64,000 nucleotides of DNA from positions 1,792,001 to 1,856,000 of the forward strand of contig CP000070.1 of NCBI GenBank assembly GCA_000002445.1, read 5' to 3'. The DNA is from Trypanosoma brucei (lineage: Eukaryota). Positions within the stretch are counted from its first letter, which is position 1. Every line of letters begins with the position of its first letter. This document shows, in pieces, positions 639 to 53,479 of this stretch. The notes beneath the pieces were generated by a model. That model ran no database searches. It saw only the letters and a list, made by a program, of their open reading frames with translations, and had not been told where the DNA came from. Both the position numbers and the translations under genes were made by a program.

Positions 639-644
639 TGTCAC

Positions 645-1047
645 ACACTTGTCTCTCCTATGTACCGCATGAAATTAAAAAAGAAAAACAGAATAATATC
701 TTTTGGGCAAGACAATACGAAAAGGGCAATGCAACATATGCAGGAGAGAGACAGTTTCCTCCTTCCCTCAAACAATAGACACACGCCACACTACAGTCTC
801 ACAATCACATTGGTTATTTAAAAGCACTCACAACACTGTAAAAGGGACAAAAAGTCACTTCAAGCAAAGCATTACTTAGCATGCGGTTACGTAGATATTC
901 ATATTGTTGCATGCCCTCCGTCACACGTTGGTACGTTGGAACATGCTAACATCAACCATCCGTCCGTCCACACACACACGCACATACCGCTATTTAAAGC
1001 GGTTTCTATACATCATTCCACTACCCAGATCCCTTATGGAAAAGTTA
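645..1047 (-). repeat. Conserved intergenic cassette copy 1: 3'UTR of the upstream paralog plus polypyrimidine tract/splice-acceptor region and short 5'UTR of the downstream paralog
   Basis: Near-identical to 2047-2420, 3438-3840, 7425-7700 and 11066-11460 (e.g. ...gaaaaacagaataatatcttttgggcaagacaatacg...ccgtcacacgttggtacgttggaacatgctaacatcaaccatccgtccgtccacacacacacgcaca...ccgctatttaaagcggtttctatacatcatt). Confidence 0.85.
661..700 (-). promoter_or_regulatory. Putative polypyrimidine tract and AG trans-splice acceptor region serving gene 27..638; predicted 5'UTR is very short
   Basis: Minus-strand reading gives ...ttctgtttttcttttttaatttcatgcggtacatAGgAGAGacaAGtgtgtgacaATG. The same arrangement sits upstream of the genes starting at 3431 and 11059. 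Kinetoplastid SL trans-splicing is inferred, not shown by the sequence. Confidence 0.45.
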
Positions 1048-1329
1048 GTCCTTCCACTTGATACAACGCACGACGTCTCCTTACGACGCAGTATGTTATG
1101 TACAGAAAATAAAATCAAGTAAAGGTGTAGAAAGAGTGACGAAAAAGTGGCATGGTAAGTTGTTATGTGTCCCGCATCAGTATCATTCGAACAGTCGCTG
1201 CCAATACCGCCAAGGATGTGACCAACATGGCACTCAAAATTCCACCAAGCACTCGCACGAACCAGTGCCACTGCCGTCCCATACGCTCGCGGTGAATTCC
1301 TATCCAGCCTACCCATTACTCGGAACCGA

Positions 1330-3431: not shown

Positions 3432-3437
3432 TGTCAC

Positions 3438-3840
3438 ACACTTGTCTCTCCTATGTACCGCATGAAATTAAAAAAGAAAAACAGAATAATATCTTTTGGG
3501 CAAGACAATACGGAAAGCACATGTACATCCATATGCAGGAGAAAGACAGTTTCCTCCTTCCCTCAAACAATAGACACACGCCACACTACAGTCTCAAAAT
3601 CACGTTGGGTATTTAAAAGCACTCACAACACTGTAAAAGGGACAAAAAGTCACTTCAAGCAAAGCATTACTTAGCATGCGATTACGTAGATATTCATATT
3701 GTTGCATGCCCTCCGTCACACGTTGGTACGTTGGAACATGCTAACATCAACCATCCGTCCGTCCACACACACACGCACACACCGCTATTTAAAGCGGTTT
3801 CTATACATCATTTCATCACCCAATTCCCTTATGGAAAAAT
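3438..3840 (-). repeat. Conserved intergenic cassette copy 3
   Basis: Identity to the other cassette copies. Confidence 0.85.
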
Positions 3841-4132
3841 AGAACGACCACCATGGCACTTTTCCCACAAGCTCATCAGGCCCAAAGGAAGAAAATGAAC
3901 AATCTACATATTGCGTTTAGTATAGTGTAAGTGAAAAATAAAGCAATAAAAACAACACTAGTGAACACCGACACGACCCTTCACCACATAAACAGGACCA
4001 TTACTATTAACACTGTTCTAACAAACTAACCGACCAATAATTGAGCGATAATCACACTATCTACGATAAAACAAAAAAGGTATTCTACCCAACAGCTGCT
4101 GGATCACTATAAACACATCATGCCCAAATCCA
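3841..4132 (-). repeat. 3' flank (putative 3'UTR) of the long-repeat gene, duplicated at 7700-8005
   Basis: ccaccatggcacttttcccacaagctcatcaggcccaaaggaagaaaat(g/a)aacaatcta...ggtattctacccaacagctgctggatca(c/t)tataaacacatcatgcccaaatccattattgcacag is shared by both copies. Confidence 0.8.
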
Positions 4133-7100
4133 TTATTGCACAGACACACCCTCGGCACCTACGGATCCAGCAGTTTCTTTAGGTCCAGCACTTCCCTCAG
4201 ATCCAGCACTTTCTTTGGGTCCAGCAGTTTCTTTGGGTCCAGCAGCTTCTTTAGGTCCAGCATTTCCCTCAGATCCAGCACTTCCCTCAGATCCAGCACT
4301 TTCTTTAGGTCCAGCACTTTCTTTAGGTCCAGCACTTCCCTCAGATCCAGCACCTTCTTTAGGTTCAGCAGTTTCTTTAGGTCCAACACTTTCCTCAGAT
4401 CCAGCACCTTCTTTAGGTCCAGCAGTTTCTTTGGGTCCAGCAGCTTCTTTAGGCCCAGCACTTCCCTCAGATCCAGCACTTTCTTCAGGTCCAGCAGTTT
4501 CTTTAGGTCCAGCACTTCCCTCAGATCCAGCACTTTCTTTAGGTCCAGCAGTTTCTTTAGGTCCAGCACTTTCCTCAGATCCAGCACTTTCTTTGGGTCC
4601 AGCAGTTTCTTTGGGTCCAGCACTTTCTTTAGGTCCAGCAGCTTCTTTAGGTCCAGCACTTCCCTCAGATCCAGCACCTTCTTTAGGTCCAGCAGCTTCT
4701 TTAGGTCCAGCACTTCCCTCAGATCCAGCACTTTCTTTGGGTCCAGCAGTTTCTTTGGGTCCAGCAGCTTCTTTAGGTCCAGCACTTCCCTCAGATCCAG
4801 CACTTTCTTTAGGTCCAGCAGTTTCTTTAGGTCCAGCACTTTCCTCAGATCCAGCACTTTCTTTAGGTCCAGCACTTTCTTTAGGTCCAGCACTTCCCTC
4901 AGATCCAGCACCTTCTTTAGGTTCAGCAGTTTCTTTAGGTCCAACACTTTCCTCAGATCCAGCACCTTCTTTAGGTCCAGCAGTTTCTTTGGGTCCAGCA
5001 GCTTCTTTAGGCCCAGCACTTCCCTCAGATCCAGCACTTTCTTTAGGTCCAGCAGTTTCTTTAGGTCCAGCACTTCCCTCAGATCCAGCACCTTCTTTAG
5101 GTTCAGCAGTTTCTTTAGGTCCAGCACTTCCCTCAGATCCAGCACTTTCTTTGGGTCCAGCACTTTCTTTGGGTCCAGCACTTTCTTTAGGTCCAGCACT
5201 TCCCTCAGATCCAGCACCTTCTTTAGGTTCAGCAGTTTCTTTAGGTCCAGCACTTTCTTTAGGTCCAGCACTTTCCTCAGATCCAGCACTTTCTTTGGGT
5301 CCAGCAGTTTCTTTGGGTCCAGGACTTTCTTTAGGTCCAGCAGTTTTTTTAGGTCCAGCACTTTCTTTAGGTCCAGCACTTCCCTCAGATCCAGCACTTT
5401 CTTTAGGTCCAGCACTTTCTTTAGGTCCAGCAGTTTTTTTAGGTCCAGCACTTTCTTTAGGTCCAGCACTTCCCTCAGATCCAGCACTTTCTTTAGGTCC
5501 AGCAGTTTCTTTAGGTCCAGCACTTTCCTCAGATCCGGCACTTTCTTTAGGTCCAGCAGCTTCTTTAGGTCCAGCACTTCCCTCAGATCCAGCACTTTCT
5601 TTAGGTCCAGCACTTTCTTTAGGTCCAGCAGTTTCTTTGGGTCCAGCAGCTTCTTTAGGTCCAGCACTTCCCTCAGATCCAGCACTTTCTTTAGGTCCAG
5701 CAGTTTCTTTAGGTCCAGCACTTTCCTCAGATCCAGCACTTTCTTTGGGTCCAGCAGTTTCTTTGGGTCCAGCACTTTCTTTAGGTCCAGCAGCTTCTTT
5801 AGGTCCAGCACTTCCCTCAGATCCAGCACCTTCTTTAGGTCCAGCAGCTTCTTTAGGTCCAGCACTTCCCTCAGATCCAGCACTTTCTTTGGGTCCAGCA
5901 GTTTCTTTGGGTCCAGCAGCTTCTTTAGGTCCAGCACTTCCCTCAGATCCAGCACTTTCTTTAGGTCCAGCAGTTTCTTTAGGTCCAGCACTTTCCTCAG
6001 ATCCAGCACTTTCTTTGGGTCCAGCAGTTTCTTTGGGTCCAGCAGTTTCTTTGGGTCCAGCAGTTTCTTTGGGTCCAGCAGCTTCTTTAGGTCCAGCACT
6101 TCCCTCAGATCCAGCACCTTCTTTAGGTCCAGCAGCTTCTTTAGGTCCAGCACTTCCCTCAGATCCAGCACTTTCTTTGGGTCCAGCATTTCCCTCAGAT
6201 CCAGCACTTCCCTCAGATCCAGCATTTCCCTCAGATCCAGCACTTCCCTCAGGTCCAGCACCTTCTTTAGGTCCAGCACTTTCTTTAGGTCCAGCACTTT
6301 CTTTGGGTCCAGCACTTCCCTCAGATCCAGCACTTCCCTCAGATCCAGCACTTTCTTTAGGTCCAGTACTTTCTTTGGGTCCGGCACTTTCTTTAGGTCC
6401 AGCACTTTCTTTAGGTCCAGTACTTTCTTTGGATCCAGCACTTTCTTTAGGTCCAGTACTTTCTTTGGGTCCAGCACTTCCCTCAGATCCAGCACTTCCC
6501 TCAGGTCCAGCACCTTCTTTAGGTCCAGCACTTTCTTTAGGTCCAGCACTTTCTTTAGGTCCAGCACTTCCCTCAGATCCAGCACTTCCCTCAGATCCAG
6601 CACTTTCTTTAGGTCCAGTACTTTCTTTGGGTCCGGCACTTTCTTTAGGTCCAGCACTTTCTTTAGGTCCAGCACTTTCCTCAGATCCAGCACCTTCTTT
6701 AGGGTCGACAAGACCCCCAGGCGTGACGGGGGTACCTTGCGTTTTGGGCGACTCTAAGGAAGTTGGACTGCTATTTTTTGTTTTGTTTGTCCTATTGACC
6801 TCTTTTTCGGTGGACATTTCGTCGGTTTCTGTGCCAGGATCAAGGAAAGTGCATATTCCCTCTTTTAGATTTTCCCCGTAATACCTGGCATCAAAACTAA
6901 GAGCCTCAATTCTTGCCGTAAGAAATTTGACCTGTAACAAATTGGTAGTTGTATACCGGTGTACCTCATCAGATAATAGCGTGAAAGACACCCAAAAGCC
7001 ACATTCTTTTTTAATGTTGCCAACCAATTCGTGTACCTTCTTTTCGTGGTCATCAACCTTGCGTTTTATAAGAAGGATGGCATCATTGTACCCATCCAGT

Positions 7101-7363
7101 ATCTTTATTCGCTCCCATGCAAAAGTACTCCTACCACTGGTGTCAAGTATCCTACAGTTAACAACCTCCTCCCTAACATTTACAAGTGAACGCTTGACGT
7201 CACGTTTTGCCTGCTCCAAACGATTATTAATATCAAATAAAAGACGCTTCATTCTTGCACAATATCTCGCTCTGCTCTCCCATCTATTAAAAAAACTGCT
7301 GGCATCAACAACATATGATGTATGCACCACAAAAAATAGCACAATACACCACAGAACATGCAT
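4133..7363 (-). CDS. Array member 4: secreted Cys-domain protein with signal peptide MHVLWCIVLFFVVHTSYVVDA, fused to ~850 aa of AGPKE[S/T/A]/AGSEGS 6-aa tandem repeats; C-terminus ...GSVGAEGVSVQ
   Basis: ORF 4133..7417 starts at GTG; first ATG at 7363. The N-terminal domain has the family C/ECGFWVSF pattern. The repeat frame is continuous with the N-terminal domain. No C-terminal hydrophobic segment. Confidence 0.8.
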   Translation of the reverse strand: MHVLWCIVLFFVVHTSYVVDASSFFNRWESRARYCARMKRLLFDINNRLEQAKRDVKRSLVNVREEVVNCRILDTSGRSTFAWERIKILDGYNDAILLIKRKVDDHEKKVHELVGNIKKECGFWVSFTLLSDEVHRYTTTNLLQVKFLTARIEALSFDARYYGENLKEGICTFLDPGTETDEMSTEKEVNRTNKTKNSSPTSLESPKTQGTPVTPGGLVDPKEGAGSEESAGPKESAGPKESAGPKESTGPKESAGSEGSAGSEGSAGPKESAGPKESAGPKEGAGPEGSAGSEGSAGPKESTGPKESAGSKESTGPKESAGPKESAGPKESTGPKESAGSEGSAGSEGSAGPKESAGPKESAGPKEGAGPEGSAGSEGNAGSEGSAGSEGNAGPKESAGSEGSAGPKEAAGPKEGAGSEGSAGPKEAAGPKETAGPKETAGPKETAGPKESAGSEESAGPKETAGPKESAGSEGSAGPKEAAGPKETAGPKESAGSEGSAGPKEAAGPKEGAGSEGSAGPKEAAGPKESAGPKETAGPKESAGSEESAGPKETAGPKESAGSEGSAGPKEAAGPKETAGPKESAGPKESAGSEGSAGPKEAAGPKESAGSEESAGPKETAGPKESAGSEGSAGPKESAGPKKTAGPKESAGPKESAGSEGSAGPKESAGPKKTAGPKESPGPKETAGPKESAGSEESAGPKESAGPKETAEPKEGAGSEGSAGPKESAGPKESAGPKESAGSEGSAGPKETAEPKEGAGSEGSAGPKETAGPKESAGSEGSAGPKEAAGPKETAGPKEGAGSEESVGPKETAEPKEGAGSEGSAGPKESAGPKESAGSEESAGPKETAGPKESAGSEGSAGPKEAAGPKETAGPKESAGSEGSAGPKEAAGPKEGAGSEGSAGPKEAAGPKESAGPKETAGPKESAGSEESAGPKETAGPKESAGSEGSAGPKETAGPEESAGSEGSAGPKEAAGPKETAGPKEGAGSEESVGPKETAEPKEGAGSEGSAGPKESAGPKESAGSEGSAGSEGNAGPKEAAGPKETAGPKESAGSEGSAGPKETAGSVGAEGVSVQ
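4160..6715 (-). repeat. Coding tandem repeat array, 18-nt period, ~140 units, two unit types (gctggacc(t/c)aaagaa(a/g)(g/c)t = AGPKE[S/T/A]; gctggatctgagggaagt = AGSEGS)
   Basis: Visible as ggtccagca(c/g)tttctttaggtccagca / cttccctcagatccagca iterations on the + strand. Open in all six frames, which produces the spurious ORFs 4136..6757, 4159..6711 and 4215..6881. Confidence 0.95.
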
Positions 7364-7424
7364 TTTCTTCAACGACAACAACACAAAAACAATAAAAAAA
7401 AACAATAGCACATGCACATGCAGG

Positions 7425-7700
7425 AGAGAGACAGTTCCCTCCTTCCCTCAAACAATAGACACACGCCACACTACAGTCTCAAAATCACGTTCAGCATTTA
7501 ACAGCATACACGACACTGTAAAAGGGACAAAAAGTCACTTCAAGCAAAGCATTACTTAGCATGCGGTTACGTAGATATTCATATTGTTGCATGCCCTCCG
7601 TCACACGTTGGTACGTTGGAACATGCTAACTCCCTTATCTCACGGCCGCTCCTCCCCACCGCTATTTAAAGCGGTCCTAACGTAATCTTATAACTAACCG
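7425..7700 (-). repeat. Conserved intergenic cassette copy 4 (partial/diverged; lacks the 5'-proximal ~60 bp)
   Basis: Shares ...gcaggagagagacagttccctccttccctcaaacaatagacacacgccacactacagtctca... and ...ccgtcacacgttggtacgttggaacatgctaac... with the other copies; the central part is diverged. Confidence 0.75.
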
Positions 7701-8005
7701 GATCCCTTATGGAAAAATAGAACGACCACCATGGCACTTTTCCCACAAGCTCATCAGGCCCAAAGGAAGAAAATAAACAATCTAAATGATATCAATAATA
7801 TAATGTAAAAATAAAGCAATAAAAACAACACTAGTGAACACCGACACGACCCTTCACCACATAAACAGGACCATTACTATTAACAGTGTTCTAACAAACT
7901 AACCGACCAATAATTGAGCGATAATCACACTATCTACGATAAAACAAAAAAGGTATTCTACCCAACAGCTGCTGGATCATTATAAACACATCATGCCCAA
8001 ATCCA
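7700..8005 (-). repeat. Second copy of the long-repeat-gene 3' flank (see 3841-4132)
   Basis: Near-identical to 3841-4132. Confidence 0.8.
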
Positions 8006-11000
8006 TTATTGCACAGACACACCCTCGGCACCTACGGATCCAGCACTTTCTTTAGGTCCAGCAGTTTCTTTGGGTCCAGCACTTTCTTTAGGTCCAGCAC
8101 TTCCCTCAGATCCAGCACTTTCTTTGGGTCCAGCAGTTTCTTTGGGTCCAGCACTTCCCTCAGATCCAGCACTTTCTTTAGGTCCAGCAGTTTCTTTAGG
8201 TCCAGCACTTTCCTCAGATCCGGCACTTTCTTTAGGTCCAGCACTTTCTTTAGGTCCAGCAGTTTCTTTGGGTCCAGCAGTTTCTTTGGGTCCAGCACTT
8301 CCCTCAGATCCAGCAGTTTCTTTGGGTCCAGCACTTCCCTCAGATCCAGCACCTTCTTTAGGTCCAGCATTTCCCTCAGATCCAGCACTTCCCTCAGATC
8401 CAGCACTTTCTTTAGGTCCAGCACTTCCCTCAGATCCGGCACTTTCTTTAGGTCCAGCACTTTCTTTGGGTCCAGCACTTTCTTTAGGTCCAGCATTTCC
8501 CTCAGATCCAGCACTTCCCTCAGATCCAGCACTTTCTTTAGGTCCAGCACTTTCTTTAGGTCCAGCACTTCCCTCAGATCCAGCACCTTCTTTAGGTCCA
8601 GCACTTTCTTTAGGTCCAGCAGCTTCTTTAGGTCCAGCACTTTCTTTAGGTCCAGCAGTTTCTTTAGGTCCAGCACTTTCCTCAGATCCGGCACTTTCTT
8701 TAGGTCCAGCACTTTCTTTGGGTCCGGCACTTTCTTTAGGTCCAGCAGCTTCTTTAGGTCCAGCACTTTCCTCAGATCCGGCACTTTCTTTAGGTCCAGC
8801 ACTTTCCTCAGATCCAGCAGCTTCTTTAGGTCCAGCACTTTCCTCAGATCCAGCAGTTTCTTTAGGTTCAGCACTTTCTTTAGGTCCAGCACTTTCCTCA
8901 GATCCGGCACTTTCTTTAGGTCCAGCACTTTCTTTGGGTCCAGCACTTTCCTCAGATCCAGCAGCTTCTTTAGGTCCAGCACTTTCCTCAGATCCAGCAG
9001 TTTCTTTAGGTCCAGCACTTTCCTCAGATCCAGCAGTTTCTTTAGGTTCAGCACTTTCTTTAGGTCCAGCACTTTCTTTAGGTCCAGCACCTTCTTTAGG
9101 TCCAGCACTTTCTTTAGGTCCAGCACTTTCTTTAGGTCCAGCACCTTCTTTAGGTCCAGCACTTTCCTCAGATCCAGCAGTTTCTTTAGGTTCAGCACTT
9201 TCTTTAGGTCCAGCACTTTCTTTAGGTCCAGCAGCTTCTTTAGGTCCAGCACTTTCTTTAGGTCCAGCACCTTCTTTAGGTCCAGTACTTTCTTTAGGTC
9301 CAGCACTTTCTTTAGGTCCAGCACCTTCTTTAGGTCCAGCACTTTCTTTAGGTCCAGCAGCTTCTTTAGGTCCAGCAGCTTCTTTAGGTCCAGCACTTCC
9401 CTCAGATCCAGCACCTTCTTTAGGTCCAGCATTTCCCTCAGATCCAGCATTTCCCCCAGATCCAGCACTTTCTTTGGGTCCAGCATTTCCCTCAGATCCA
9501 GCATTTCCCCCAGATCCAGCACTTTCTTTGGGTCCAGCACTTTCCTCAGATCCAGCAGCTTCTTTAGGTCCAGCACTTTCTTTAGGTCCAGCACTTTCTT
9601 TAGGTCCAGCAGCTTCTTTAGGTCCAGCAGCTTCTTTAGGTCCAGCACTTCCCTCAGATCCAGCACCTTCTTTAGGTCCAGCATTTCCCTCAGATCCAGC
9701 ATTTCCCCCAGATCCAGCACTTTCTTTGGGTCCAGCATTTCCCTCAGATCCAGCATTTCCCCCAGATCCAGCACTTTCTTTGGGTCCAGCACTTTCTTTA
9801 GGTCCAGCACTTTCTTTAGGTCCAGCACTTTCTTTAGGTCCAGCAGCTTCTTTAGGTCCAGCATTTCCCTCAGATCCAGCAGCTTCTTTAGGTCCAGCAC
9901 TTTCCTCAGATCCAGCACCTTCTTTAGGTTCAGCACTTTCTTTAGGTCCAGCACTTTCTTTAGGTCCAGCAGCTTCTTTAGGTCCAGCATTTCCCTCAGA
10001 TCCAGCATTTCCCCCAGATCCAGCACTTTCCTCAGATCCGGCACTTTCTTTAGGTCCAGCACTTCCCTCAGATCCAGCAGCTTCTTTAGGTCCAGCACTT
10101 TCTTTGGGTCCAGCAGCTTCTTTAGGTCCAGCACTTCCCTCAGATCCAGCAGCTTCTTTAGGTCCAGCATTTCCCTCAGATCCAGCATTTCCCCCAGATC
10201 CAGCACTTTCTTTGGGTCCAGCATTTCCCTCAGATCCAGCAGTTTCTTTAGGTCCGGCAGTTTCTTTGGGTCCAGCACTTTCTTTAGGTCCAGCAGTTTC
10301 TTTAGGTCCAGCACTTTCCTCAGATCCAGCACTTTCTTTAGGTCCAGCAGCTTCTTTAGGTCCAGCACTTTCCTCAGATCCAGCACTTTCTTTGGGTCCA
10401 GCAGCTTCCTTGGTGGTGACCGTTTCTTTTGGCGACTGGGATGTCGCACCACTGCTTTTGGGTTCCTCTTGTTTTTTCTTTGCCTTTTCTTCCTCCTCCC
10501 CCGCCAATACATTCTCTGTCCCCACCAAGACGCATCTGTTTCTTGCGGCGGTATCGCTGTGATTTTTTGCACCAAGACTGAGTTTGTCTATCATTATCGT
10601 TAGGGATCTTGCTTCTAACAGTTTTTCTTTAACAGTTCTTTTGAATGACGATGTGAGTGGCATGAAAGACAACCAGAAGCCGCAGCCGTTCCATATTTCA
10701 CCAGTCAAAGTGTTGATCTTCCTTTCGCAATCACCGATGAGCAGTTCAATTTGCCTAATGGCACTGTAGCTCTCGTCTACTAACTTAAGTTTTTCTGAGT
10801 TGGTGGCGCCAGAAACGTCCTTGGCTTTCTTATGCTTCAAAATACCTTCGCATTCTGCTTTTACGGCTAGCGTGTTATTGAACGCACGGTCGAATACGTT
10901 CCATGACTCTGAAAATCGGTTGTTAACTTTGTTAATAACACTTTTGACCTTTTTACAATGAGCTGCTCTGCTTTCCCGCCTCTCGAAACCACGCACGCCC

Positions 11001-11059
11001 CCCACATTGCACAGAATGGCAATGAAAAGGCACACGATGATTTTCTTCGCTAGATTCAT
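8006..11059 (-). CDS. Array member 5: secreted Cys-domain protein with signal peptide MNLAKKIIVCLFIAILCNVGGVRGF, fused to ~790 aa of AGPKE[S/T/A]/AGSEGS/AGSGGN repeats; same C-terminus as member 4
   Basis: ORF starts at GTG 11065; first ATG at 11059. N-terminal domain carries NSEKLKLVDESYSAIRQIE and CGFWLSFMPLTSS. The last 28 nt of the CDS and the 3' flank are identical to member 4. Confidence 0.8.
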   Translation of the reverse strand: MNLAKKIIVCLFIAILCNVGGVRGFERRESRAAHCKKVKSVINKVNNRFSESWNVFDRAFNNTLAVKAECEGILKHKKAKDVSGATNSEKLKLVDESYSAIRQIELLIGDCERKINTLTGEIWNGCGFWLSFMPLTSSFKRTVKEKLLEARSLTIMIDKLSLGAKNHSDTAARNRCVLVGTENVLAGEEEEKAKKKQEEPKSSGATSQSPKETVTTKEAAGPKESAGSEESAGPKEAAGPKESAGSEESAGPKETAGPKESAGPKETAGPKETAGSEGNAGPKESAGSGGNAGSEGNAGPKEAAGSEGSAGPKEAAGPKESAGPKEAAGSEGSAGPKESAGSEESAGSGGNAGSEGNAGPKEAAGPKESAGPKESAEPKEGAGSEESAGPKEAAGSEGNAGPKEAAGPKESAGPKESAGPKESAGPKESAGSGGNAGSEGNAGPKESAGSGGNAGSEGNAGPKEGAGSEGSAGPKEAAGPKEAAGPKESAGPKESAGPKEAAGSEESAGPKESAGSGGNAGSEGNAGPKESAGSGGNAGSEGNAGPKEGAGSEGSAGPKEAAGPKEAAGPKESAGPKEGAGPKESAGPKESTGPKEGAGPKESAGPKEAAGPKESAGPKESAEPKETAGSEESAGPKEGAGPKESAGPKESAGPKEGAGPKESAGPKESAEPKETAGSEESAGPKETAGSEESAGPKEAAGSEESAGPKESAGPKESAGSEESAGPKESAEPKETAGSEESAGPKEAAGSEESAGPKESAGSEESAGPKEAAGPKESAGPKESAGPKESAGSEESAGPKETAGPKESAGPKEAAGPKESAGPKEGAGSEGSAGPKESAGPKESAGSEGSAGSEGNAGPKESAGPKESAGPKESAGSEGSAGPKESAGSEGSAGSEGNAGPKEGAGSEGSAGPKETAGSEGSAGPKETAGPKETAGPKESAGPKESAGSEESAGPKETAGPKESAGSEGSAGPKETAGPKESAGSEGSAGPKESAGPKETAGPKESAGSVGAEGVSVQ
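8033..10410 (-). repeat. Coding 18-nt tandem repeat array (second copy; different unit order and length from 4160-6715; includes GGN/EES variants)
   Basis: Same ggtccagca.../cttccctcagatccagca units. Spurious alternative-frame ORFs 8009..10603, 8032..10575 and 8070..10562. Confidence 0.95.
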
Positions 11060-11065
11060 TGTCAC

Positions 11066-11600
11066 ACACTTGTCTCTCCTATGTACCGCATGAAATTAAA
11101 AAAGAAAAACAGAATAATATCTTTTGGGCAAGACAATAGGGAAAGCACATGTACATCCATATGCAGGAGAAAGACAGTTTCCTCCTTCCCTCAAACAATA
11201 GACACACGCCACACTACAGTCTCACAATCACGTTGGGTATTTAAAAGCACTCACAACACTGTAAAAGGGACAAAAAGTCACTTCAAGCAAAGCATTACTT
11301 AGCATGCGATTACGTAGATATTCATATTGTTGCATGCCCTCCGTCACACGTTGGTACGTTGGAACATGCTAACATCAACCATCCGTCCGTCCACACACAC
11401 ACGCACACACCGCTATTTAAAGCAGTTTCTATACATCATTCCACTACCCAAATGTCCCATGCTTATCCGGAAGCCGGAGCACGTCGCCGATCTGTTCATA
11501 TCTTCAATAAAAAGAACAAAAAGTAAAGCATATTAATGTTATAAAGCAATAAAGGAAAACCACAGCACGCAGCTGAATAACTTGTTATCATCGAAGCAGC
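11066..11600 (-). repeat. Conserved intergenic cassette copy 5 plus the extension shared with 2420-2555
   Basis: Identity to 3438-3840 (core) and 2420-2555 (extension). Confidence 0.85.
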
Positions 11601-11708: not shown

Positions 11709-12515
11709 CTAATCCACCTCTGCCTGGGCCTCCTTCCCTACCGCAGGTTCAGCAACAACAGCAGGTTCCTCGTCGGCGGTTTTTTCCCCAAGACCTTCTT
11801 GGCTGCTATCGGTGTCACCTTTAGCGGTGTCAGTCGACCTCTTTTCTTCTCTCTGCTCATCCATACTTGTGGGTGATTCAGGAGATTCGGGCACGGGGCC
11901 ATCGGATGTTTCCTCGTTCTGTTTGCCGGAAGTGTCTTCACCAGCACCTGCCTCCTTCTCTCTGCGTTTATCCTCCACCGTGGAGCACTCATCATTCGCC
12001 GCATCAGCGGCATAGCTCGCCGCATCTCCACTAAGAGTTTCAATTTTCGACACCTTGCCTGTAGCTTCAGCCGTCGTCTCCTCAATGCTCCGTTTGAATG
12101 AAATGGTTACTGGCATGAAGGACAACCAAAACCCGCATCGGTCCTTTAGATACACCGTTAGTTTGTGTAAATCGCGCTCGTAGTTCCTAATCTCTGTTCC
12201 GACATACATGATCGCGTTGTAGTACTCATCTACAACTCTCTTCTTTCCGCTGTCTGCAACATCTGTTATCTCATCGTCGCTGACTTTCTTCACGTCCTCG
12301 TCGCACTTTCCCTTGACAACACTGGTTCGCTTGAGAGCAACTTCAAACGTGTGCCATGCGTTTGCATAGCGGGTATTAATGGCCCGAACTGATTTGGCCA
12401 CTGTAGTACAGTATTCTGAGCGGCTTATCCTTCCCCAATGAGAAGAGGACTTGCCTCCAATACTGCATAGCCCGGCCACGAGAATATATAGTGTTACGCC
12501 CCTTGCGAAAACCAT
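11709..12515 (-). CDS. Array member 6 (most upstream): secreted Cys-domain protein with signal peptide MVFARGVTLYILVAGLCSIGG and acidic Glu/Asp/Ser-rich tail
   Basis: ORF starts at TTG 12524; first ATG at 12515. Motifs VVDEYYNAIMYVGTE and RCGFWLSFMPVTIS. Has a different 5' flank from the other members (no cassette upstream). Confidence 0.75.
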   Translation of the reverse strand: MVFARGVTLYILVAGLCSIGGKSSSHWGRISRSEYCTTVAKSVRAINTRYANAWHTFEVALKRTSVVKGKCDEDVKKVSDDEITDVADSGKKRVVDEYYNAIMYVGTEIRNYERDLHKLTVYLKDRCGFWLSFMPVTISFKRSIEETTAEATGKVSKIETLSGDAASYAADAANDECSTVEDKRREKEAGAGEDTSGKQNEETSDGPVPESPESPTSMDEQREEKRSTDTAKGDTDSSQEGLGEKTADEEPAVVAEPAVGKEAQAEVD

Positions 12516-25376: not shown

Positions 25377-28300
25377 TTATGGACTCATTCGGAAACTGCT
25401 ATTGGGACTTACAGATGGAGGATGACGGCCACCAAGATGACGCAACTCCAAAGGCACAAGTACCCAGTTAGAACATAACTCGGCACCTCTCCGCGCCAAA
25501 ATGCATTGCTTCACGAAGAATGCCCTTCTCGGGAGACGCTTTGCGGAATGACGAAGGGTTCGTGCACGATTAGCTGAATAACGTAGAATTTGCTTCCTAA
25601 TTAGTGCACCCGAGAGCCGTGGAGGGCTGAAATCCCCCGAACCGCAGCTTTGAACTTTCTGTACATACCTCTTCACAACGTTCCGGCAGAATGCGAGGTT
25701 GGAAGGGCGACGTCCCAAAGTGCTCTGACACAGCCGATTAACGTTGCGCAGTAGACTCCGCTGAACGCATTTCGCCGTTGACGAGAGCGGCCGCCACGAC
25801 TGGGGTAGTCCCGATTCTTGCCATAAATTTTCATCGACGCCCACATCACCTAATGTGATGTTAATGCACGGCAAGGGCGAACACATTTTCAGGTTGCGGC
25901 CCACGGGGCGAAGAGCACTAGTACCTCTTCTGCGGGAAATGTCGTTTGAATGGCCACCCTCAGCACCCATGTTTACGTATGGCCGAGGTCGAACGACTGG
26001 ATTCGATTGGACAGACGACATTGTGCTGATAGGGTTGAAACACTTGAACATGTTCGGCTCAAGTACGGGACTTTCCGGAAGAACGGGCCCAGTGGCTGAT
26101 TTGGGGCGGTGAGCCAGGAGCATTCTGGAGAGAGACCGATAGTAGGCCTCCTCAGCTGGTCTCAGGTACGTCCGTGCGGTGGGAAAGCCCTCCGTCCCTA
26201 TGTCTAAAGTTACCCCGGGTTTTAACTTACGTTGGGGCAATTCGTGAGTACGAGCCAACTTACGCTGCAGCGGAAGTGGCTTATACGCACCGCGATGAGC
26301 AAATCCGGTGCCGGGGCCGCCTCCACCACTACCACCAGCACCGTAACCATAGCCAAAACTACCGTGGCCGGCGCGGGCATCACTGTGACCAGTGCCAGGA
26401 CCATAACCAACACTGCCGGGGCCAGTGCGCTCACTGTAACCAGTACCGCCGGCACCAACACTACCGGGGCCAGTGCGGGCATCACGGCCAGCCCGGGAAC
26501 CATAACCAAAACTGCCAGGAACAGTGCGGGCATCGCGGCCAGTGGCAGAACCATAACCAACACTGCCGGGGCCAGCGCGCTCACTGTAGCCAGTGCGCTC
26601 ACTGTAACCAGTACCGCCGGCACCAACACTGCCTCGTTCTCTCCCACGTCCAATGCCTGCGAAAATTTGTTCAGCCGTACGCGGGGTGAAGGTATAAGCA
26701 TGCAGCAGCCGCTGCTCCCGAGGCTCGTACTGATCCTCGTCGCCTTCTAACAGAGGTGTGCCAGGATCATACCAAGGTGTCCCACGCTGTTGAATAAAGG
26801 AGAAGTTCTGCTGCAACCCTGTGAACCTGGCTGGGGGCGCACGGTCCCTTTGCTTTACCTCAGGAATGTCGGTTAACAGGTCGACGCGAATCACCGAAGC
26901 CCGCCACGGAATACGCTGTACCCCACGCCGCGTAAGTGTCACGGGAGGCGGTGATCTCTCCCTTACATATCCCGAAGCCTCTGAAAGAAAGGGGACAAAT
27001 GTTGCACCACCGGTGCTCTCCGAAACCTTGGTATCCCTATCGTCGGAGCACGGAAGATCCGAAGTACCAGGGCCAAACTGGGGAGCATCCGTAATAGGTC
27101 CTCGAAGACTTCCAGGGGCGCTACGCTTGGCAGGGACTGCGGTCGGACGCGGTGCTGTATCAGGTGGAGTGTCCACTTTTTCCACTGCAGAACTAGAGAA
27201 CACACTCGAACCCCCTCCCACAGTCCCGTGCGAAGGTTGAATCGGGTGCGCTGTTCCGCCCTTTGACCACCGCCGCTTGGAGTCTGCCAACGAACCCGAG
27301 TCATGAGACTGAAAGCTCTTTGGTGAACTGCGGCCACCTCCACTCCTCGAAAGTTGAGAAGAGACCTTTCGACCCCTCGGCGACTGTGGTTGCACTTGAG
27401 CCGGCAAATCAGTTTTACCTCCCTGCTGATAGCGTTCATCTGAGGAAATATCACCAGACGATTCCCTTCCTCTAACTTGACCGGGTCCATGCCTGCTTGC
27501 CGGCTTCGCTGTGGTACGCACATCACCATCCCCTCCTGTAGCTGGTTGCTGCTGACCACCTGAGCCCCTCACCGGGCTCGCCTTTTGATTACTTGGCGAC
27601 GCCGCAGATCTGGTGCTTCCACCACCAACGCTCGTGACAGGAGAAGCAGCAGCAACAGCACGCACCTTTCTCGCCTGCTGAGCACCTTTCGCCTGCGGGG
27701 AACCGGTGTCGTCTGCCCTTCCCGGTGCACGTAACCCCTGTGACGCCCCTGTGCCCTTCGATGGAAACTTGGGGGCAGCACCACCTCGGGGGCTCCCGGG
27801 GGCCAAATTGTTTGACGAAGATAGGCTACTTCTCTCGCCCGTAGTATCGCTGGCGCTTCCTCCAGATGGCAACCTCCCGCGCACGTGACGCAGAAAATTC
27901 TCCAGTACTAGTGTGTCACTCAATACTACTTCTGACATGTGCTCCGTCAGTACGACGGTATTTGTGTTAGGCCCTGGTGCGCGGAACTTCACGGTCTTTG
28001 TTGAGTCCGTGCTGCCCCTTAGCGACAACGATTCCAACAGTTCATTTAGTGCAATGACAGACTGGTGCAGCAAGCCATAGTGACGAGCGAGTTCGGCGAC
28101 GTGATTGCCAACGCTTACCGACAAAGGACTCATCCGAGCCATAAGTTCCATCGTTTGAGAGAGTGAGCGTGTCTCCTGAGAGTTCTCGCGCTCACCATCG
28201 TCAGTAGTAGCCTCACCGCCGGCACCGGCAGAAGATCCCCGTCCTACTCCCAAAGGAGGCAGTGCATGTGAGCTCAAATCTCTCGTCGTAGCTGTCCCAC

Positions 28301-30230
28301 CTCGGGAAGTCTGCGAATGGCTCGCTGTCCTTCGCTCAGATGGAGTCTTCCTCCTCTCACGGATGTCTGCATCCTCAGCGGTCGTTAAGCTTCTCTTTGA
28401 AGCTGACGTCACCCTCCTCCTCCCAGTATCGCTGCTGCGCGTGCTTCCACCGGAGAAAGGCCGTTGCGAAGCATCATCGCGGCGCGACTGCTTTTCGGTG
28501 CGGGACTCACCGTGGGCCCCACGCCTCGTTGAGTCGCTACCAGCACTTGGGACACGAGCGTCTGTGTTGTCACTAGGGAGGAATGACAGATCCGAAGCCG
28601 CGCGTTCACCCGAGTGACCTGCCGCCCCCGATTTAGAGGCTGTTGCCTCTTTCGCCGGCCGTTTGGAAGTGCTCTTCTTTTTACTTTTTTCCGTCGTCCG
28701 TGTAGTTAGCGACTGTCTGGGCGATGATGTAGAACCGGTGTCTGGTCGCGGCAAACCCAGAGGAGAGAACAAATCCCCTTTTGTCTTAGGAGGTTGAGCG
28801 GCGCCACTCTGCCGACCTTTGCTAGACGGTGGTAACGCCGCATCGTCGACAGAAGTTGCCAATTTATCCCAGCTCACAGAAGCACGTGAGTCCCGTCCCG
28901 ATGTAACACTAGGCGGCAGCACGTTAGACTTCTTTTTTGACTTCGTCTTCGGAACCGCTTCCTCCGCAGAGGGCACGTCTTCCTCACTGTCTGAAAGAGT
29001 GGAATGAGATGCAATGAGAGGCGTTCGCTCAACAGAGCCCTCATCATCTGTGAAGACATCCCTCCTAGCCACGAGTTGAGCCGGAACCACGCTGGTAGGA
29101 GCGCCCTGAAGAGTGGCCCCATCAGCCGACTTCGGAGAGGCACGTCCCAAGGAAAGCCGGTCTTGCGTGCTATCGAATTTGGTGGAGCGCCCATCCCCGG
29201 TGGTAGGGACGGATTCGGTCTCCTCTTGTGTTCCCTCAGCAGGGGGGCCGACACATACATGCGATAACACAGCATCTTCCTTTGCCATGCACAGCGTTTC
29301 GTACGCCTCCGTCACCTCTTGTACATGTTTACGGTAGAGCGTGTGACGCATCATAATATATTTCTTTTCGTCCTCTAATTTCCTGATCTCCGACTCCAGT
29401 CCTAGCGTATAAAGTCGATGCTCTGCCTCAACTGAGTTCCCCTCAACGCCCTCCGCGATAATTTTGAGTGCTTCCGCGGAGTACTCGCCACCCTCGTGCA
29501 TCAGTTGCTGGTGAGGAAGGCGCCTCCCGTAACTAGCCATCCCGATCTGTCGCCGCAGGTTTGTAATGATGGTTTCCTTTAATGAAAGCGCAACAAGTCC
29601 CTCGGCCACACGGTTGTTTGAAATCTGAAGCTCCTCGTCCCGTTTCGCCATCCGATCTTCAAACATCCCTAACTCAGCCTTCAACCGGCTAATTTGTTGA
29701 CGCAACTGGTCCGCTGAGATATTCTGTCTAGCGATACTTTGATGCAACTGTGTATTGTTCTTCTCTAGTTCCAGGGAGCGCTTCTCAAGAACGTCATATG
29801 ATGCCTGCAGCTGCTCATACCGAGCGTTCGTTTCATTCAACTCCTGACAGCGCGTGTGGAGTTCCGCCCGAGTGCGCTCCAACACCAATTCCGTATTCAC
29901 GAAGCGAGTTTGCACCGACTCGAATAACTCAAAAGAAACGGAAATGGCGGGGATAGTGCTTGGCGGAGGTCCCTCTTCCCCGTAAAAGAGCGCCTTCATA
30001 GCGCCGTAACCCGGCTCTCCCATGGACTCCAGAATAACCCGGTAGCCCTCTCCGTATTCAATCGCGGCTTTGGCCTCAACGCTGATGGGCCGCTCGCTGC
30101 CAGCCGCCGCGCCATCGTTTGCGGCGGCGCCGGTGACTGACCCGATGCTGCTGGACGGGCTGCGATCCTCACCCAATGGGTTGGGTCGATGGAACCCTCC
30201 AGAGTGACCTGCAACAGCGGCATCGTTCAT
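25377..30230 (-). CDS. Large coiled-coil protein (~1617 aa) with a long Ser/Arg/Gly-rich disordered middle and a C-proximal Gly-Tyr-Gly/SERTG low-complexity repeat region
   Basis: N-terminal heptad-rich segment (…LERTRAELHTRCQELNETNARYEQLQASYDVLEKRSLELEKNNTQLHQS…). ORF begins at TTG 30269; the in-frame ATG MNDAAVAG is at 30230. Confidence 0.6.
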   Translation of the reverse strand: MNDAAVAGHSGGFHRPNPLGEDRSPSSSIGSVTGAAANDGAAAGSERPISVEAKAAIEYGEGYRVILESMGEPGYGAMKALFYGEEGPPPSTIPAISVSFELFESVQTRFVNTELVLERTRAELHTRCQELNETNARYEQLQASYDVLEKRSLELEKNNTQLHQSIARQNISADQLRQQISRLKAELGMFEDRMAKRDEELQISNNRVAEGLVALSLKETIITNLRRQIGMASYGRRLPHQQLMHEGGEYSAEALKIIAEGVEGNSVEAEHRLYTLGLESEIRKLEDEKKYIMMRHTLYRKHVQEVTEAYETLCMAKEDAVLSHVCVGPPAEGTQEETESVPTTGDGRSTKFDSTQDRLSLGRASPKSADGATLQGAPTSVVPAQLVARRDVFTDDEGSVERTPLIASHSTLSDSEEDVPSAEEAVPKTKSKKKSNVLPPSVTSGRDSRASVSWDKLATSVDDAALPPSSKGRQSGAAQPPKTKGDLFSPLGLPRPDTGSTSSPRQSLTTRTTEKSKKKSTSKRPAKEATASKSGAAGHSGERAASDLSFLPSDNTDARVPSAGSDSTRRGAHGESRTEKQSRRDDASQRPFSGGSTRSSDTGRRRVTSASKRSLTTAEDADIRERRKTPSERRTASHSQTSRGGTATTRDLSSHALPPLGVGRGSSAGAGGEATTDDGERENSQETRSLSQTMELMARMSPLSVSVGNHVAELARHYGLLHQSVIALNELLESLSLRGSTDSTKTVKFRAPGPNTNTVVLTEHMSEVVLSDTLVLENFLRHVRGRLPSGGSASDTTGERSSLSSSNNLAPGSPRGGAAPKFPSKGTGASQGLRAPGRADDTGSPQAKGAQQARKVRAVAAASPVTSVGGGSTRSAASPSNQKASPVRGSGGQQQPATGGDGDVRTTAKPASRHGPGQVRGRESSGDISSDERYQQGGKTDLPAQVQPQSPRGRKVSSQLSRSGGGRSSPKSFQSHDSGSLADSKRRWSKGGTAHPIQPSHGTVGGGSSVFSSSAVEKVDTPPDTAPRPTAVPAKRSAPGSLRGPITDAPQFGPGTSDLPCSDDRDTKVSESTGGATFVPFLSEASGYVRERSPPPVTLTRRGVQRIPWRASVIRVDLLTDIPEVKQRDRAPPARFTGLQQNFSFIQQRGTPWYDPGTPLLEGDEDQYEPREQRLLHAYTFTPRTAEQIFAGIGRGRERGSVGAGGTGYSERTGYSERAGPGSVGYGSATGRDARTVPGSFGYGSRAGRDARTGPGSVGAGGTGYSERTGPGSVGYGPGTGHSDARAGHGSFGYGYGAGGSGGGGPGTGFAHRGAYKPLPLQRKLARTHELPQRKLKPGVTLDIGTEGFPTARTYLRPAEEAYYRSLSRMLLAHRPKSATGPVLPESPVLEPNMFKCFNPISTMSSVQSNPVVRPRPYVNMGAEGGHSNDISRRRGTSALRPVGRNLKMCSPLPCINITLGDVGVDENLWQESGLPQSWRPLSSTAKCVQRSLLRNVNRLCQSTLGRRPSNLAFCRNVVKRYVQKVQSCGSGDFSPPRLSGALIRKQILRYSANRARTLRHSAKRLPRRAFFVKQCILARRGAELCSNWVLVPLELRHLGGRHPPSVSPNSSFRMSP
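26250..26690 (-). repeat. Coding low-complexity G/Y/S repeat (GSVGYG..TGYSERTGPGSVGYG... iterations)
   Basis: Degenerate ~45-60-nt repeats, open in several frames (spurious ORFs 26174..26689+, 26222..26701-, 26232..26750+). Confidence 0.8.
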
Positions 30231-53112: not shown

Positions 53113-53170
53113 GACAAGCGCGGTCAAACCGTGCACTCTCTGCTTGGCTCTTCCTTCTTGATATTTTTTC

Positions 53171-53198
53171 TTATATATATATATATATATATATATAT
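53171..53198. repeat. (TA)n microsatellite just upstream of the kinase gene
   Basis: tatatatatata run. Other (TA)n runs at ~16090-16116, ~18870-18892, ~23428-23456, ~50186-50210 and ~50372-50392. Confidence 0.95.
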
Positions 53199-53479
53199 CC
53201 TTCCTAAACACGTAATGTAAATATATGCTTACGCGCGCTCAGGTGCGTGAGCCCAACAACTGAACAGATAAATCAAAAGGAAAAAGGAATATCAGTAGTT
53301 ATTACAATCTTTATTATTGTTGTTGTTATTGTTATTATAATTATATGCTGATGGGAACAAAAGAAACACAAAAAGTGAATGATCTGCTGTGGGACAATTC
53401 CTTAATTTAAAGCACTCACACACGAAAGTGGCGGCATCTTTCATTCATATCTCTACTCGATTTTCGAAAACGTTTATGC

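What the first reader, a model, noticed from the sequence alone, without database searches (positions are those of the whole stretch)
4133..11059. Two family members carry ~2.5-kb arrays of 6-aa AGPKE[S/T/A]/AGSEGS repeats, an immunodominant-antigen-like architecture
Members 4 and 5 fuse the conserved Cys domain to ~130-140 tandem 18-nt units. The units are of two main types (AGPKES/T/A and AGSEGS, with AGSGGN and AGSEES variants in member 5), shuffled in different orders in the two genes. The result is a highly charged (K/E), Gly/Pro/Ser/Ala-rich, presumably disordered polymer on a secreted scaffold. Long perfect tandem repeats of this kind are typical of B-cell-immunodominant parasite antigens and adhesive mucin-like proteins. 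The two arrays differ in length and unit order, implying ongoing unequal crossing-over.
Basis: seen in the sequence. Interest (0 to 1): 0.75.

Follow-up and report, generated by a model that had tools for sequence, protein, structure and literature searches.

The report
Repeat-tailed Fam10 secreted trypanosome proteins
The two 2.4-2.6 kb repeat arrays are real coding sequence of two already catalogued Trypanosoma brucei genes (Tb927.7.6580 and Tb927.7.6590, also called SGM1.5 and SGM1.6); each gene joins a small helical head to a floppy acidic tail of about 800-850 residues, the proteins have been detected, and their function and antigenicity have not been tested.

Summary
Two minus-strand genes (4133-7363 and 8006-11059) carry in-frame arrays of 142 and 133 units of 18 nt, with no indels and no Ns. 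The units encode AGPKE[S/T/A/G] and AGSE[G/E][S/N].

The window is T. brucei TREU927 chromosome 7. Published primers and annotation names identify the neighbouring genes as Tb927.7.6560, .6570 and .6600. The repeat genes are therefore Tb927.7.6580 and .6590, members SGM1.5 and SGM1.6 of cell-surface family Fam10.

Published work already records:
- the "repetition sequence";
- metacyclic-stage transcription of Tb927.7.6590 and the family;
- peptides in the bloodstream-form surface-labelled proteome;
- a flagellar-pocket-lumen location.

New here:
- the head is predicted to be a three-helix bundle whose best structural matches are trypanosome surface receptors;
- none of the six window members has a membrane anchor signal;
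- the tail is a net-acidic, probably disordered polymer;
- the arrays grew by internal block duplication (exact 366-bp and 219-bp copies);
- the .6590 ortholog in T. b. gambiense has 170 units;
- homologs of the head exist in T. congolense.

Immunodominance is plausible but untested, and the repeats are not perfect. The feature is already known and of modest interest.

The parts
4133..7363 (-). Member 4 CDS = Tb927.7.6580 / SGM1.5, 1076 aa, about 104 kDa, including the stop codon at 4133-4135
   Evidence: Translation. Gene identity comes from its position between ESP17/Tb927.7.6570 and Tb927.7.6600 (primers). SGM1.5 and SGM1.6 are the members published as carrying a repetition sequence.
7295..7363 (-). 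Member 4 signal peptide (about aa 1-23)
   Evidence: The N-terminus is hydrophobic (15-aa Kyte-Doolittle maximum 2.06). The published signal-peptide probability is 0.997.
6839..7294 (-). Member 4 head domain (about aa 24-175) with four conserved Cys (C35, C70, C121, C171); predicted three-helix bundle
6692..6838 (-). Member 4 linker (aa 176-224) with three N-glycosylation sequons (NRT, NKT, NSS)
   Evidence: pLDDT is below 40. Sequons listed.
4136..6691 (-). Member 4 hexapeptide array: 142 units of 18 nt (140 canonical plus the terminal AGSVGA-EGVSVQ)
5651..6016 (-). Member 4 internal block, an exact 366-bp copy of 4499-4864
4499..4864 (-). Member 4 internal block, second copy
8006..11059 (-). 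Member 5 CDS = Tb927.7.6590 / SGM1.6, 1017 aa, about 98 kDa
   Evidence: Translation. Identity established as for member 4. The LSMean profile in Vigneron's dataset matches the text's description of sgm1.6.
10988..11059 (-). Member 5 signal peptide; its codons are 99-100% identical to those of members 1 and 3
10520..10987 (-). Member 5 head domain (about aa 25-180): 43% identical to ESP17 (whole N-terminal region, signal peptide included) but only 30% identical to member 4's head
10403..10519 (-). Member 5 acidic/basic linker
8009..10402 (-). Member 5 hexapeptide array: 133 units of 18 nt
9578..9796 (-). Member 5 internal block, an exact 219-bp copy of 9326-9544
9326..9544 (-). Member 5 internal block, second copy
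3733..4132 (-). 3' flank of member 4, 92% identical to the 3' flank of member 5 (7606-8005)
7606..8005 (-). 3' flank of member 5

Best explanation
The two arrays are the C-terminal parts of two paralogous Fam10 genes of Trypanosoma brucei, Tb927.7.6580 (SGM1.5) and Tb927.7.6590 (SGM1.6). These genes sit in a tandem gene cluster on chromosome 7.

Shown:
- Each gene encodes a signal peptide, a head domain of about 150 residues with four conserved cysteines, a short linker, and then about 800-850 residues of AGPKEx/AGSExx hexapeptides.
- None of the six family members in the window has a transmembrane segment or a GPI-addition signal.

Predicted: the head is a three-helix bundle, and the tail is unstructured.

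Inferred from the sequence and from published localisation data: the products are anchorless proteins secreted through the flagellar pocket. They stay in the pocket lumen or associate peripherally with the coat, presumably through the head. The net-acidic, Pro/Gly-punctuated tail would act as a long, hydrated, flexible polymer that works as a spacer or matrix-forming element, and it is exposed to host antibody.

Shown for array evolution: the arrays change by intragenic duplication of multi-unit blocks. The array and its 3' flank are shared by two genes whose heads are only 30% identical. That means either the tail module was transferred between the genes or it is kept similar by gene conversion.
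For: Identity:
- Four flanking proteins are exact matches to T. brucei TREU927 chromosome 7 entries AAZ12716-18 and AAZ12721.
- The ortholog of member 3 is named ESP17, which is Tb927.7.6570.
- Published TbSGM1.3 (Tb927.7.6560) primers map inside member 2.
- TbSGM1.7 (Tb927.7.6600) primers map inside member 6.
- Vigneron 2020 SI states that SGM1.5 and SGM1.6 carry a 'repetition sequence'.

Translation and exposure (Gadelha 2015 supplement):
- Tb427.07.6580: 16 peptides, 44.7% coverage.
- Tb927.7.6590: 9 peptides, 30.7% coverage.
- Both had fluorescein-modified peptides and were enriched 20-78x in the surface-labelled fraction.
- The head plus linker is only 21% of each protein, so the repeats must be translated.

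Location: TrypTag calls both 'apparently lumenal flagellar pocket proteins'.

Stage: Tb927.7.6590 LSMean is 119, 713 and 515 in epimastigote, Meta1 and Meta2 cells.

No anchor: no segment after the signal peptide reaches a 19-residue Kyte-Doolittle mean of 1.0, and all C-termini are hydrophilic. Casas-Sanchez 2023 says the same of Fam10.

Tail: composition and charge; no predicted secondary structure.

Array dynamics.

Heads versus tails.
Against: - The proposed role of the tail (spacer or matrix) is inference only. No knock-out, binding or biophysical data exist.
- TrypTag localisation comes from tagged protein in procyclic forms, which is not the natural stage of peak expression.
- The roughly 90-100 lysines per protein could bias enrichment in a lysine-directed surface-labelling experiment.
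- The proteomic coverage figure for .6580 refers to the Lister 427 gene model, whose length I could not check.
- Tb927.7.6580 is missing from the Vigneron differential-expression table, so its metacyclic expression is not documented here.
Confidence: 0.8

Rival explanations
1. One reading: the repeat tails are immunodominant, T-independent B-cell antigens. They would work as a 'smokescreen' that diverts antibody from functional epitopes, as proposed for Plasmodium CSP or T. cruzi SAPA repeats. This is compatible with the best explanation rather than exclusive of it.
For: - The arrays are long and of low complexity, with 130-140 near-identical charged units.
- The proteins are extracellular.
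- The family is expressed in the mammal-infective metacyclic stage.
- Array length and unit mix differ between subspecies.
- Antibody to a repeat-less paralog, SGM1.7, modestly reduced early parasitaemia.
Against: - No serology, epitope mapping or patient-serum data were found for these repeats.
- Their signal in bloodstream forms was among the lowest intensities listed in the surface-proteome table (log10 intensity about -7.5 to -8.0).
- A pocket-lumen location limits access.
- Length variation is equally expected from neutral repeat instability.
Confidence: 0.25
2. The arrays, or at least their lengths and unit order, are assembly artefacts of a repeat-rich region.
For: - Other assemblies fail at exactly this place. 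T. b. equiperdum has a 100-N gap where the arrays should be.
- T. b. gambiense DAL972 has two 100-N gaps, a mis-scaffolded inverted 7.6-kb contig and frame-broken arrays on that contig.
Against: - In the window the arrays have no Ns, no indels, an intact frame over more than 130 units, and a shared stop codon and 3' flank.
- An independent clean 170-unit array exists in DAL972.
- Peptide coverage exceeds what the head alone can give.
- Copy number could still be off by some units.
Confidence: 0.07
3. They are GPI-anchored or otherwise membrane-bound mucin-like coat or adhesin proteins. The Ser/Thr-containing repeats would carry O-glycans and form a glycocalyx stalk, like T. cruzi mucins or the procyclins.
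For: - Some published tables list Fam10 members as 'predicted GPI', and the predictor score for Tb427.07.6590 is 0.64.
- Repeat position 6 is mostly S or T.
- Procyclins are acidic Pro-rich repeat proteins from the same organism (established knowledge).
Against: - None of the six members has a hydrophobic C-terminal signal.
- The GPI score for Tb427.07.6580 is 0.145.
- Casas-Sanchez 2023 notes that Fam10 has no TM or GPI signal.
- S+T is only 17-19% of the tail.
- Mucin-type O-glycosylation of such repeats has not been described in T. brucei (my own knowledge).
Confidence: 0.08

Closest known systems
Fam10 / SGM1 family of T. brucei (SGM1.7 = Tb927.7.6600; ESP17 = Tb927.7.6570)
   Same: - Same chromosomal cluster.
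- Same signal peptide; in members 1, 3 and 5 it is encoded by 99-100% identical codons.
- Same four-Cys head with the CGFW motif.
- Same absence of a membrane anchor.
- Same surface or extracellular detection and metacyclic-stage transcription.
- Members 4 and 5 are members of this family (SGM1.5 and SGM1.6).
   Different: The other five members have short acidic tails of 25-90 residues and total lengths of 203-268 aa. These two have tails of about 800-850 residues made of hexapeptide units.
MISP / BARP / GARP (Fam50), HpHbR, FHR and ISG65: three-helix-bundle surface proteins of African trypanosomes
   Same: - MISP-A also places charged repeats (26-aa motifs, 1-3 copies) C-terminal to the bundle.
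- MISP is also expressed in salivary-gland and metacyclic stages.
   Different: - No detectable sequence homology (no Pfam hit; no PDB sequence hit at E<0.3).
- The helices are shorter (about 33-45 residues).
- Those proteins are anchored by GPI or a TM segment, whereas Fam10 has neither.
- The repeat number is two orders of magnitude higher.
Procyclins (EP and GPEET) of T. brucei
   Same: Acidic, Pro-containing short tandem repeats that form an extended extracellular polymer on a trypanosome life-cycle stage in or from the fly.
   Different: - Procyclins have no globular head.
- They are GPI-anchored.
- They have 5-30 repeats of 2 or 5 residues.
- They are expressed in procyclic forms.
CRAM (cysteine-rich acidic repetitive membrane protein) of T. 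brucei
   Same: A large flagellar-pocket protein built mostly from tens of short acidic tandem repeats (my own knowledge).
   Different: CRAM repeats are 12-residue Cys-rich units, and the protein has a transmembrane anchor. There is no sequence similarity.
Tandem-repeat B-cell antigens of parasites (Plasmodium CSP NANP repeats, T. cruzi SAPA, Leishmania K39, T. brucei GM6)
   Same: Long arrays of short, hydrophilic, near-identical units, and in the case of CSP, expression on the vector-to-mammal transmission stage.
   Different: Antigenicity has been demonstrated for those proteins and is untested here. Most trypanosomatid repeat antigens (K39, GM6) are intracellular cytoskeletal proteins, whereas these are secreted.

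Membership tests
Fam10 / SGM1 (T. brucei cell-surface phylome family 10) | Location in the chromosome 7 cluster Tb927.7.6550-6600 | tested here: met
   Flanking proteins are exact matches to TREU927 entries. Published primers for Tb927.7.6560 and .6600 map to members 2 and 6. ESP17 is Tb927.7.6570.
Fam10 / SGM1 (T. brucei cell-surface phylome family 10) | Sequence homology of the head domain to other members | tested here: met
   BLASTP results:
- member 5 vs ESP17: 43% identity, E=3e-59;
- member 4 vs ESP17: 28%, E=3e-21;
- member 4 vs member 5: 30%, E=1e-20.
Four Cys and the CG motif are invariant.
Fam10 / SGM1 (T. brucei cell-surface phylome family 10) | N-terminal signal peptide with no TM or GPI signal | tested here: met
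   Hydropathy scan. Agrees with Casas-Sanchez 2023.
Fam10 / SGM1 (T. brucei cell-surface phylome family 10) | Expression in metacyclic forms | not testable with these tools
   Published scRNA-seq gives Tb927.7.6590 LSMean of 119, 713 and 515. Tb927.7.6580 is absent from that table.
Trypanosome three-helix-bundle surface proteins (GARP/BARP/MISP/HpHbR type) | Elongated three-helix-bundle ectodomain | tested here: met
   [not shown]
Trypanosome three-helix-bundle surface proteins (GARP/BARP/MISP/HpHbR type) | Detectable sequence relationship | tested here: not met
   No Pfam family. Profile against PDB sequences gave a best E of 0.37, to unrelated proteins. Foldseek gave no match at E<=1e-3.
Trypanosome three-helix-bundle surface proteins (GARP/BARP/MISP/HpHbR type) | Membrane attachment by GPI or TM | tested here: not met
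Immunodominant tandem-repeat parasite antigens | Long array of short tandem amino-acid repeats | tested here: met
Immunodominant tandem-repeat parasite antigens | Strong antibody response to the repeats in infected hosts | not testable with these tools
   No paper in the library contains the motif, and none reports serology for these gene IDs.
Mucin-like proteins | Ser/Thr/Pro-dominated repeats carrying dense O-glycans | tested here: inconclusive
   S+T is 17-19% and P is 11-12% of the tail, which is lower than in typical mucin domains. Glycosylation cannot be tested here.
Collagen-like repeats (PF01391) | Gly at every third residue (G-X-Y) | tested here: not met
   The Pfam hit has E=0.98, below the family cut-off. 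Gly is fixed only at position 2 of 6. The only database hit to the repeats is a collagen-like protein at 48% identity over 58% of the query, which reflects composition.

The most novel reading that the evidence does not exclude
SGM1.5 and SGM1.6 are anchorless, secreted polymers that the parasite uses to build an extracellular matrix of its own. That matrix would be the gel of the flagellar-pocket lumen and perhaps a loose outer layer on metacyclic cells. A receptor-like three-helix-bundle head would dock onto the coat or capture a host ligand. The length-polymorphic acidic tail would set the physical properties of the matrix and also act as an antibody sink at the bite site. This would explain how anchorless Fam10 proteins stay surface-associated, and it would make array length a trait under selection.
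Probability: 0.15. Interest if true: 0.6.

Novelty: already known. Interest (0 to 1): 0.3.

Why it matters
Fam10 proteins are among the few invariant proteins exposed on the tsetse-transmitted, mammal-infective stage of T. brucei. [quoted passage not shown]

The two repeat-tailed members are the largest in the family and the least studied. If their repeats are antigenic, they could serve as simple synthetic-peptide diagnostics, or they could explain antibody diversion.

How anchorless Fam10 proteins remain at the surface is an open question stated in the literature. The head-plus-polymer anatomy described here suggests testable answers. None of this changes the fact that the genes and their repeats are already catalogued.

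Tried and rejected
- My first recollection that these were the MISP genes (Tb927.7.360-440) was wrong. MISP is Fam50, 357 aa, with 26-residue repeats and a GPI signal.
- Pfam, PDB sequence search and Foldseek gave nothing significant for the head.
- The word-indexed protein search with the family profile returned only three clusters and no repeat-bearing ortholog.
- The exact sequences of members 4 and 5 are not in the collection, although their four neighbours are. The exhaustive HMM search also returned no long homolog. Strain comparison through protein databases was therefore impossible.
- A search with the repeat region found only a collagen-like protein.
- Full-text searches for 'AGPKES' and for UniProt accessions found nothing.
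- Jackson 2013 and two transcriptome papers do not discuss Fam10 in their main text.
- The T. b. equiperdum assembly was useless for the arrays because of a gap.
- The DAL972 locus could be interpreted only in part, because it is mis-scaffolded and has frame-broken draft sequence.
- The weakest T. congolense homolog lies among VSG genes and is not syntenic. I did not pursue synteny for the stronger ones.
- Between-array exchange of interior blocks was tested and not found. The longest shared run is 5 units, which is at shuffle level.

Full report
**Observation**

Tandem Repeats Finder reports two arrays, at 4166-6703 and 8039-10411, with scores of 3214 and 2868, 84% matches and no indels within each array. 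Two minus-strand ORFs, 4133-7417 and 8006-11065, cover them. Each translation reads as a hydrophobic N-terminus, a domain of about 150 residues, a short linker and then uninterrupted hexapeptides. Both end in the same AGSVGAEGVSVQ-stop.

Counted from the first ATG:
- Member 4 (4133-7363) is 1076 aa with 142 units (array 4136-6691).
- Member 5 (8006-11059) is 1017 aa with 133 units (array 8009-10402).
- There are 22 and 19 distinct 18-nt unit types, and 14 are shared.
- The commonest units are AGPKES, AGSEGS, AGPKET, AGPKEA and AGSEES.
- AGSGGN occurs only in member 5. AGSEES occurs in both, contrary to the finding.

Four of the six frames are open through the arrays, so ORF length alone proves nothing. 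The coding frame is fixed by continuity with the head, by the stop shared with the gambiense ortholog, and by published peptide coverage (below).

**Identity**

The four short paralogs flanking the arrays are exact matches to T. brucei brucei TREU927 chromosome 7 proteins AAZ12716, 12717, 12718 and 12721. [quoted passage not shown] ESP17 is Tb927.7.6570 and belongs to Fam10 (Gadelha 2015, PMC4587319).

Published primers confirm the neighbours:
- The TbSGM1.3 (Tb927.7.6560) qPCR primers both map inside member 2.
- The TbSGM1.7 (Tb927.7.6600) primers map inside member 6.

By gene order, members 4 and 5 are Tb927.7.6580 and Tb927.7.6590. [quoted passage not shown] My first guess, the MISP genes Tb927.7.360-440, was wrong.

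**What is already published about these two genes**

- Both were found in the bloodstream-form surface-labelled proteome. Tb427.07.6580 gave 27 PSMs, 16 peptides and 44.7% coverage. Tb927.7.6590 gave 48 PSMs, 9 peptides and 30.7% coverage. Both had fluorescein-modified peptides and were enriched 20-78-fold.
- The head plus linker is only 21% of either protein, so such coverage requires peptides from the repeats. The arrays are therefore translated.
- The genome-wide tagging project calls both 'apparently lumenal flagellar pocket proteins' (PMC9981465).
- Single-cell RNA-seq shows Fam10 transcripts rising from epimastigotes to metacyclics. Tb927.7.6590 has LSMeans of 119, 713 and 515. Tb927.7.6580 is not in that table.
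- Casas-Sanchez 2023 notes that how Fam10 attaches to the membrane is unknown, because the proteins lack a TM or GPI signal.

**Anatomy added here**

1. *Head.* The six heads align with four invariant cysteines and a CG(F)W motif. AlphaFold2 on this shallow alignment gives three long helices (31-75, 82-121, 132-164 in member 4) with pLDDT above 90 in the core, and a disordered linker.
   - Foldseek found nothing at E<=1e-3.
   - From the topology I infer disulfides C35-C121 and C70-C171.
2. *No anchor.* In all six members, no 19-residue window after the signal peptide reaches a Kyte-Doolittle mean of 1.0, and the last 20 residues are hydrophilic.
3. *Tail.* Composition is G 21-22%, E 18%, A 17-19%, S 15%, P 11-12% and K 11-12%, with pI about 4.7 and net charge -54 and -57. 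Variation is concentrated at positions 3-6 of the hexapeptide, while A1 and G2 are nearly fixed. A single-sequence AlphaFold2 run shows no secondary structure and pLDDT of 45-55 across the repeats. This is weak but consistent evidence of disorder.

**Array dynamics**

Written as strings of DNA unit types, member 4 contains a 19-unit run present twice, 64 units apart. At nucleotide level this is an exact 366-bp duplication, 5651-6016 = 4499-4864. It also has a 10-unit run present twice. Member 5 contains an 11-unit run twice, an exact 219-bp duplication, 9578-9796 = 9326-9544. Shuffling the unit order gives at most 8 shared units.

Between the two arrays the longest shared run is 5 units, which is no more than in shuffles. 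Recent change is therefore by block duplication within each array, not by exchange between them.

The two genes nevertheless share their unit vocabulary, their last 12 codons and a 92%-identical 3' flank, while their heads are only 30% identical. Member 5's head is closer to ESP17, at 43% over the whole N-terminal region, signal peptide included. The tail module has therefore either moved between genes or been kept similar by gene conversion.

**Other assemblies**

- In T. b. gambiense DAL972 the locus has two 100-N gaps. A 7.6-kb contig carrying member-4-type heads is inserted in inverted orientation, and its arrays contain frameshifts.
- The sequences on either side of that insert are identical for 229 bp, including an idiosyncratic AGCEES unit. 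They are therefore one gene: a member-5 head followed by a clean 170-unit array that ends in AGSVGAEGVSVQ-stop and lies next to the ESP17 ortholog. Its unit mix also differs (84 AGPKES, 10 AGSKES).
- In a T. b. equiperdum assembly a 100-N gap replaces the arrays.

These results support length and composition polymorphism. The exact TREU927 unit counts cannot be verified with these tools.

**Wider family**

An exhaustive profile search finds the seventh T. brucei member, SGM1.1 (AAZ12713), which has a His/Asp/Glu-rich tail. It also finds seven T. congolense IL3000 proteins (E from 1.5e-31 to 1.7e-4) with the same Cys pattern and short tails. The head is therefore older than the 'T. brucei spp.-specific' annotation implies.

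No homolog with a hexapeptide array was found. However, the collection lacks even the TREU927 repeat proteins, so this absence is uninformative. A search with the repeats themselves hit only a collagen-like protein.

**How it most likely works**

Shown: these are real, translated, extracellular proteins with a head, a very long low-complexity acidic tail and no anchor signal.

Inferred: they are secreted through the flagellar pocket and remain in its lumen, or bind the coat peripherally through the head. The tail would behave as a long, flexible, hydrated polymer that acts as a spacer or matrix. A random coil of about 850 residues would have a radius of gyration near 11 nm (my estimate from standard polymer scaling), which is comparable to the thickness of the VSG coat.

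An antibody-decoy role is compatible with this but untested. A GPI-anchored mucin-like role is unlikely, and a pure assembly artefact is very unlikely.

**Verdict**

The feature is already known as annotated genes in a named family, with the repeats noted in print, peptides detected and a location published. What remains open is function, attachment and antigenicity.

Noticed in passing
window 639-1088, 2014-2463, 3432-3881, 7364-7813, 11060-11509, and the first 69 nt of each CDS: The 450 nt upstream of the ATG are 83-95% identical among members 1-5. The signal-peptide codons of members 1, 3 and 5 are 99-100% identical. The mature head codons are only about 60-66% identical at nucleotide level. 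The 5' flank and signal peptide look homogenised by gene conversion, or else the heads are diversifying fast. Member 6 has a different upstream region.
   Followed up: partly
proteins P0014-P0018, P0020, P0022 (T. congolense IL3000); locus L007: Fam10 heads have clear homologs in T. congolense (E down to 1.5e-31) with the same four-Cys pattern and CGFWLSF motif, although databases label the T. brucei genes 'T. brucei spp.-specific'. P0016 looks like a direct counterpart of member 1. The weakest homolog, P0022, sits among VSG genes.
   Followed up: partly
L001 12219-12318 and 19965-20064; L001 12319-19964; L003 9116-9215: In the public T. b. gambiense DAL972 chromosome 7, a 7.6-kb contig with member-4-type genes is inserted in inverted orientation between two gaps, inside what is really one member-5-type gene. 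The arrays on that contig are frame-broken. The T. b. equiperdum assembly has a gap in place of both repeat genes.
   Followed up: yes
window 4133-7363 and 8006-11059: The exact protein sequences of the two repeat genes are absent from the 15-billion-protein collection, although all four neighbouring family members are present. No long homolog appears in the exhaustive HMM search either. The collection may filter highly repetitive proteins, or the deposited models may differ.
   Followed up: no
window 50413-53211 (-), repeat at 52120-52315: This ORF is a 932-aa protein kinase (Pkinase E=3e-64) with an Asp/Glu run of about 65 residues encoded by a GAT/GAA triplet repeat. A 2009 microarray paper calls 'Tb927.7.6580' a CAMK-group kinase. 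That conflicts with every other source and is probably a mislabelled ID for a different gene.
   Followed up: no
window 26345-26612 within ORF 25377-30269 (-): There are imperfect 51-nt / 99-nt tandem repeats (66-76% matches) inside a 1630-aa ORF that has no Pfam family.
   Followed up: no
window 1-64000: Apart from the open mirror frames across the two arrays and a few ORFs that overlap minus-strand ORFs, every ORF of 200 aa or more lies on the minus strand. Intergenic regions are AT-rich with pyrimidine tracts. This fits a single kinetoplastid polycistronic transcription unit. Neighbouring genes include an N6-adenine methyltransferase-like protein, a DnaJ protein, an RMC1-like protein and a 3030-aa ORF with no family.
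   Followed up: no
window 12487-12506 (-): The TbSGM1.7 forward primer as printed in Vigneron 2020 Table S1 lacks one G compared with the TREU927 sequence. It matches only after a G is inserted. This is probably a typographical slip or a strain difference.
   Followed up: yes
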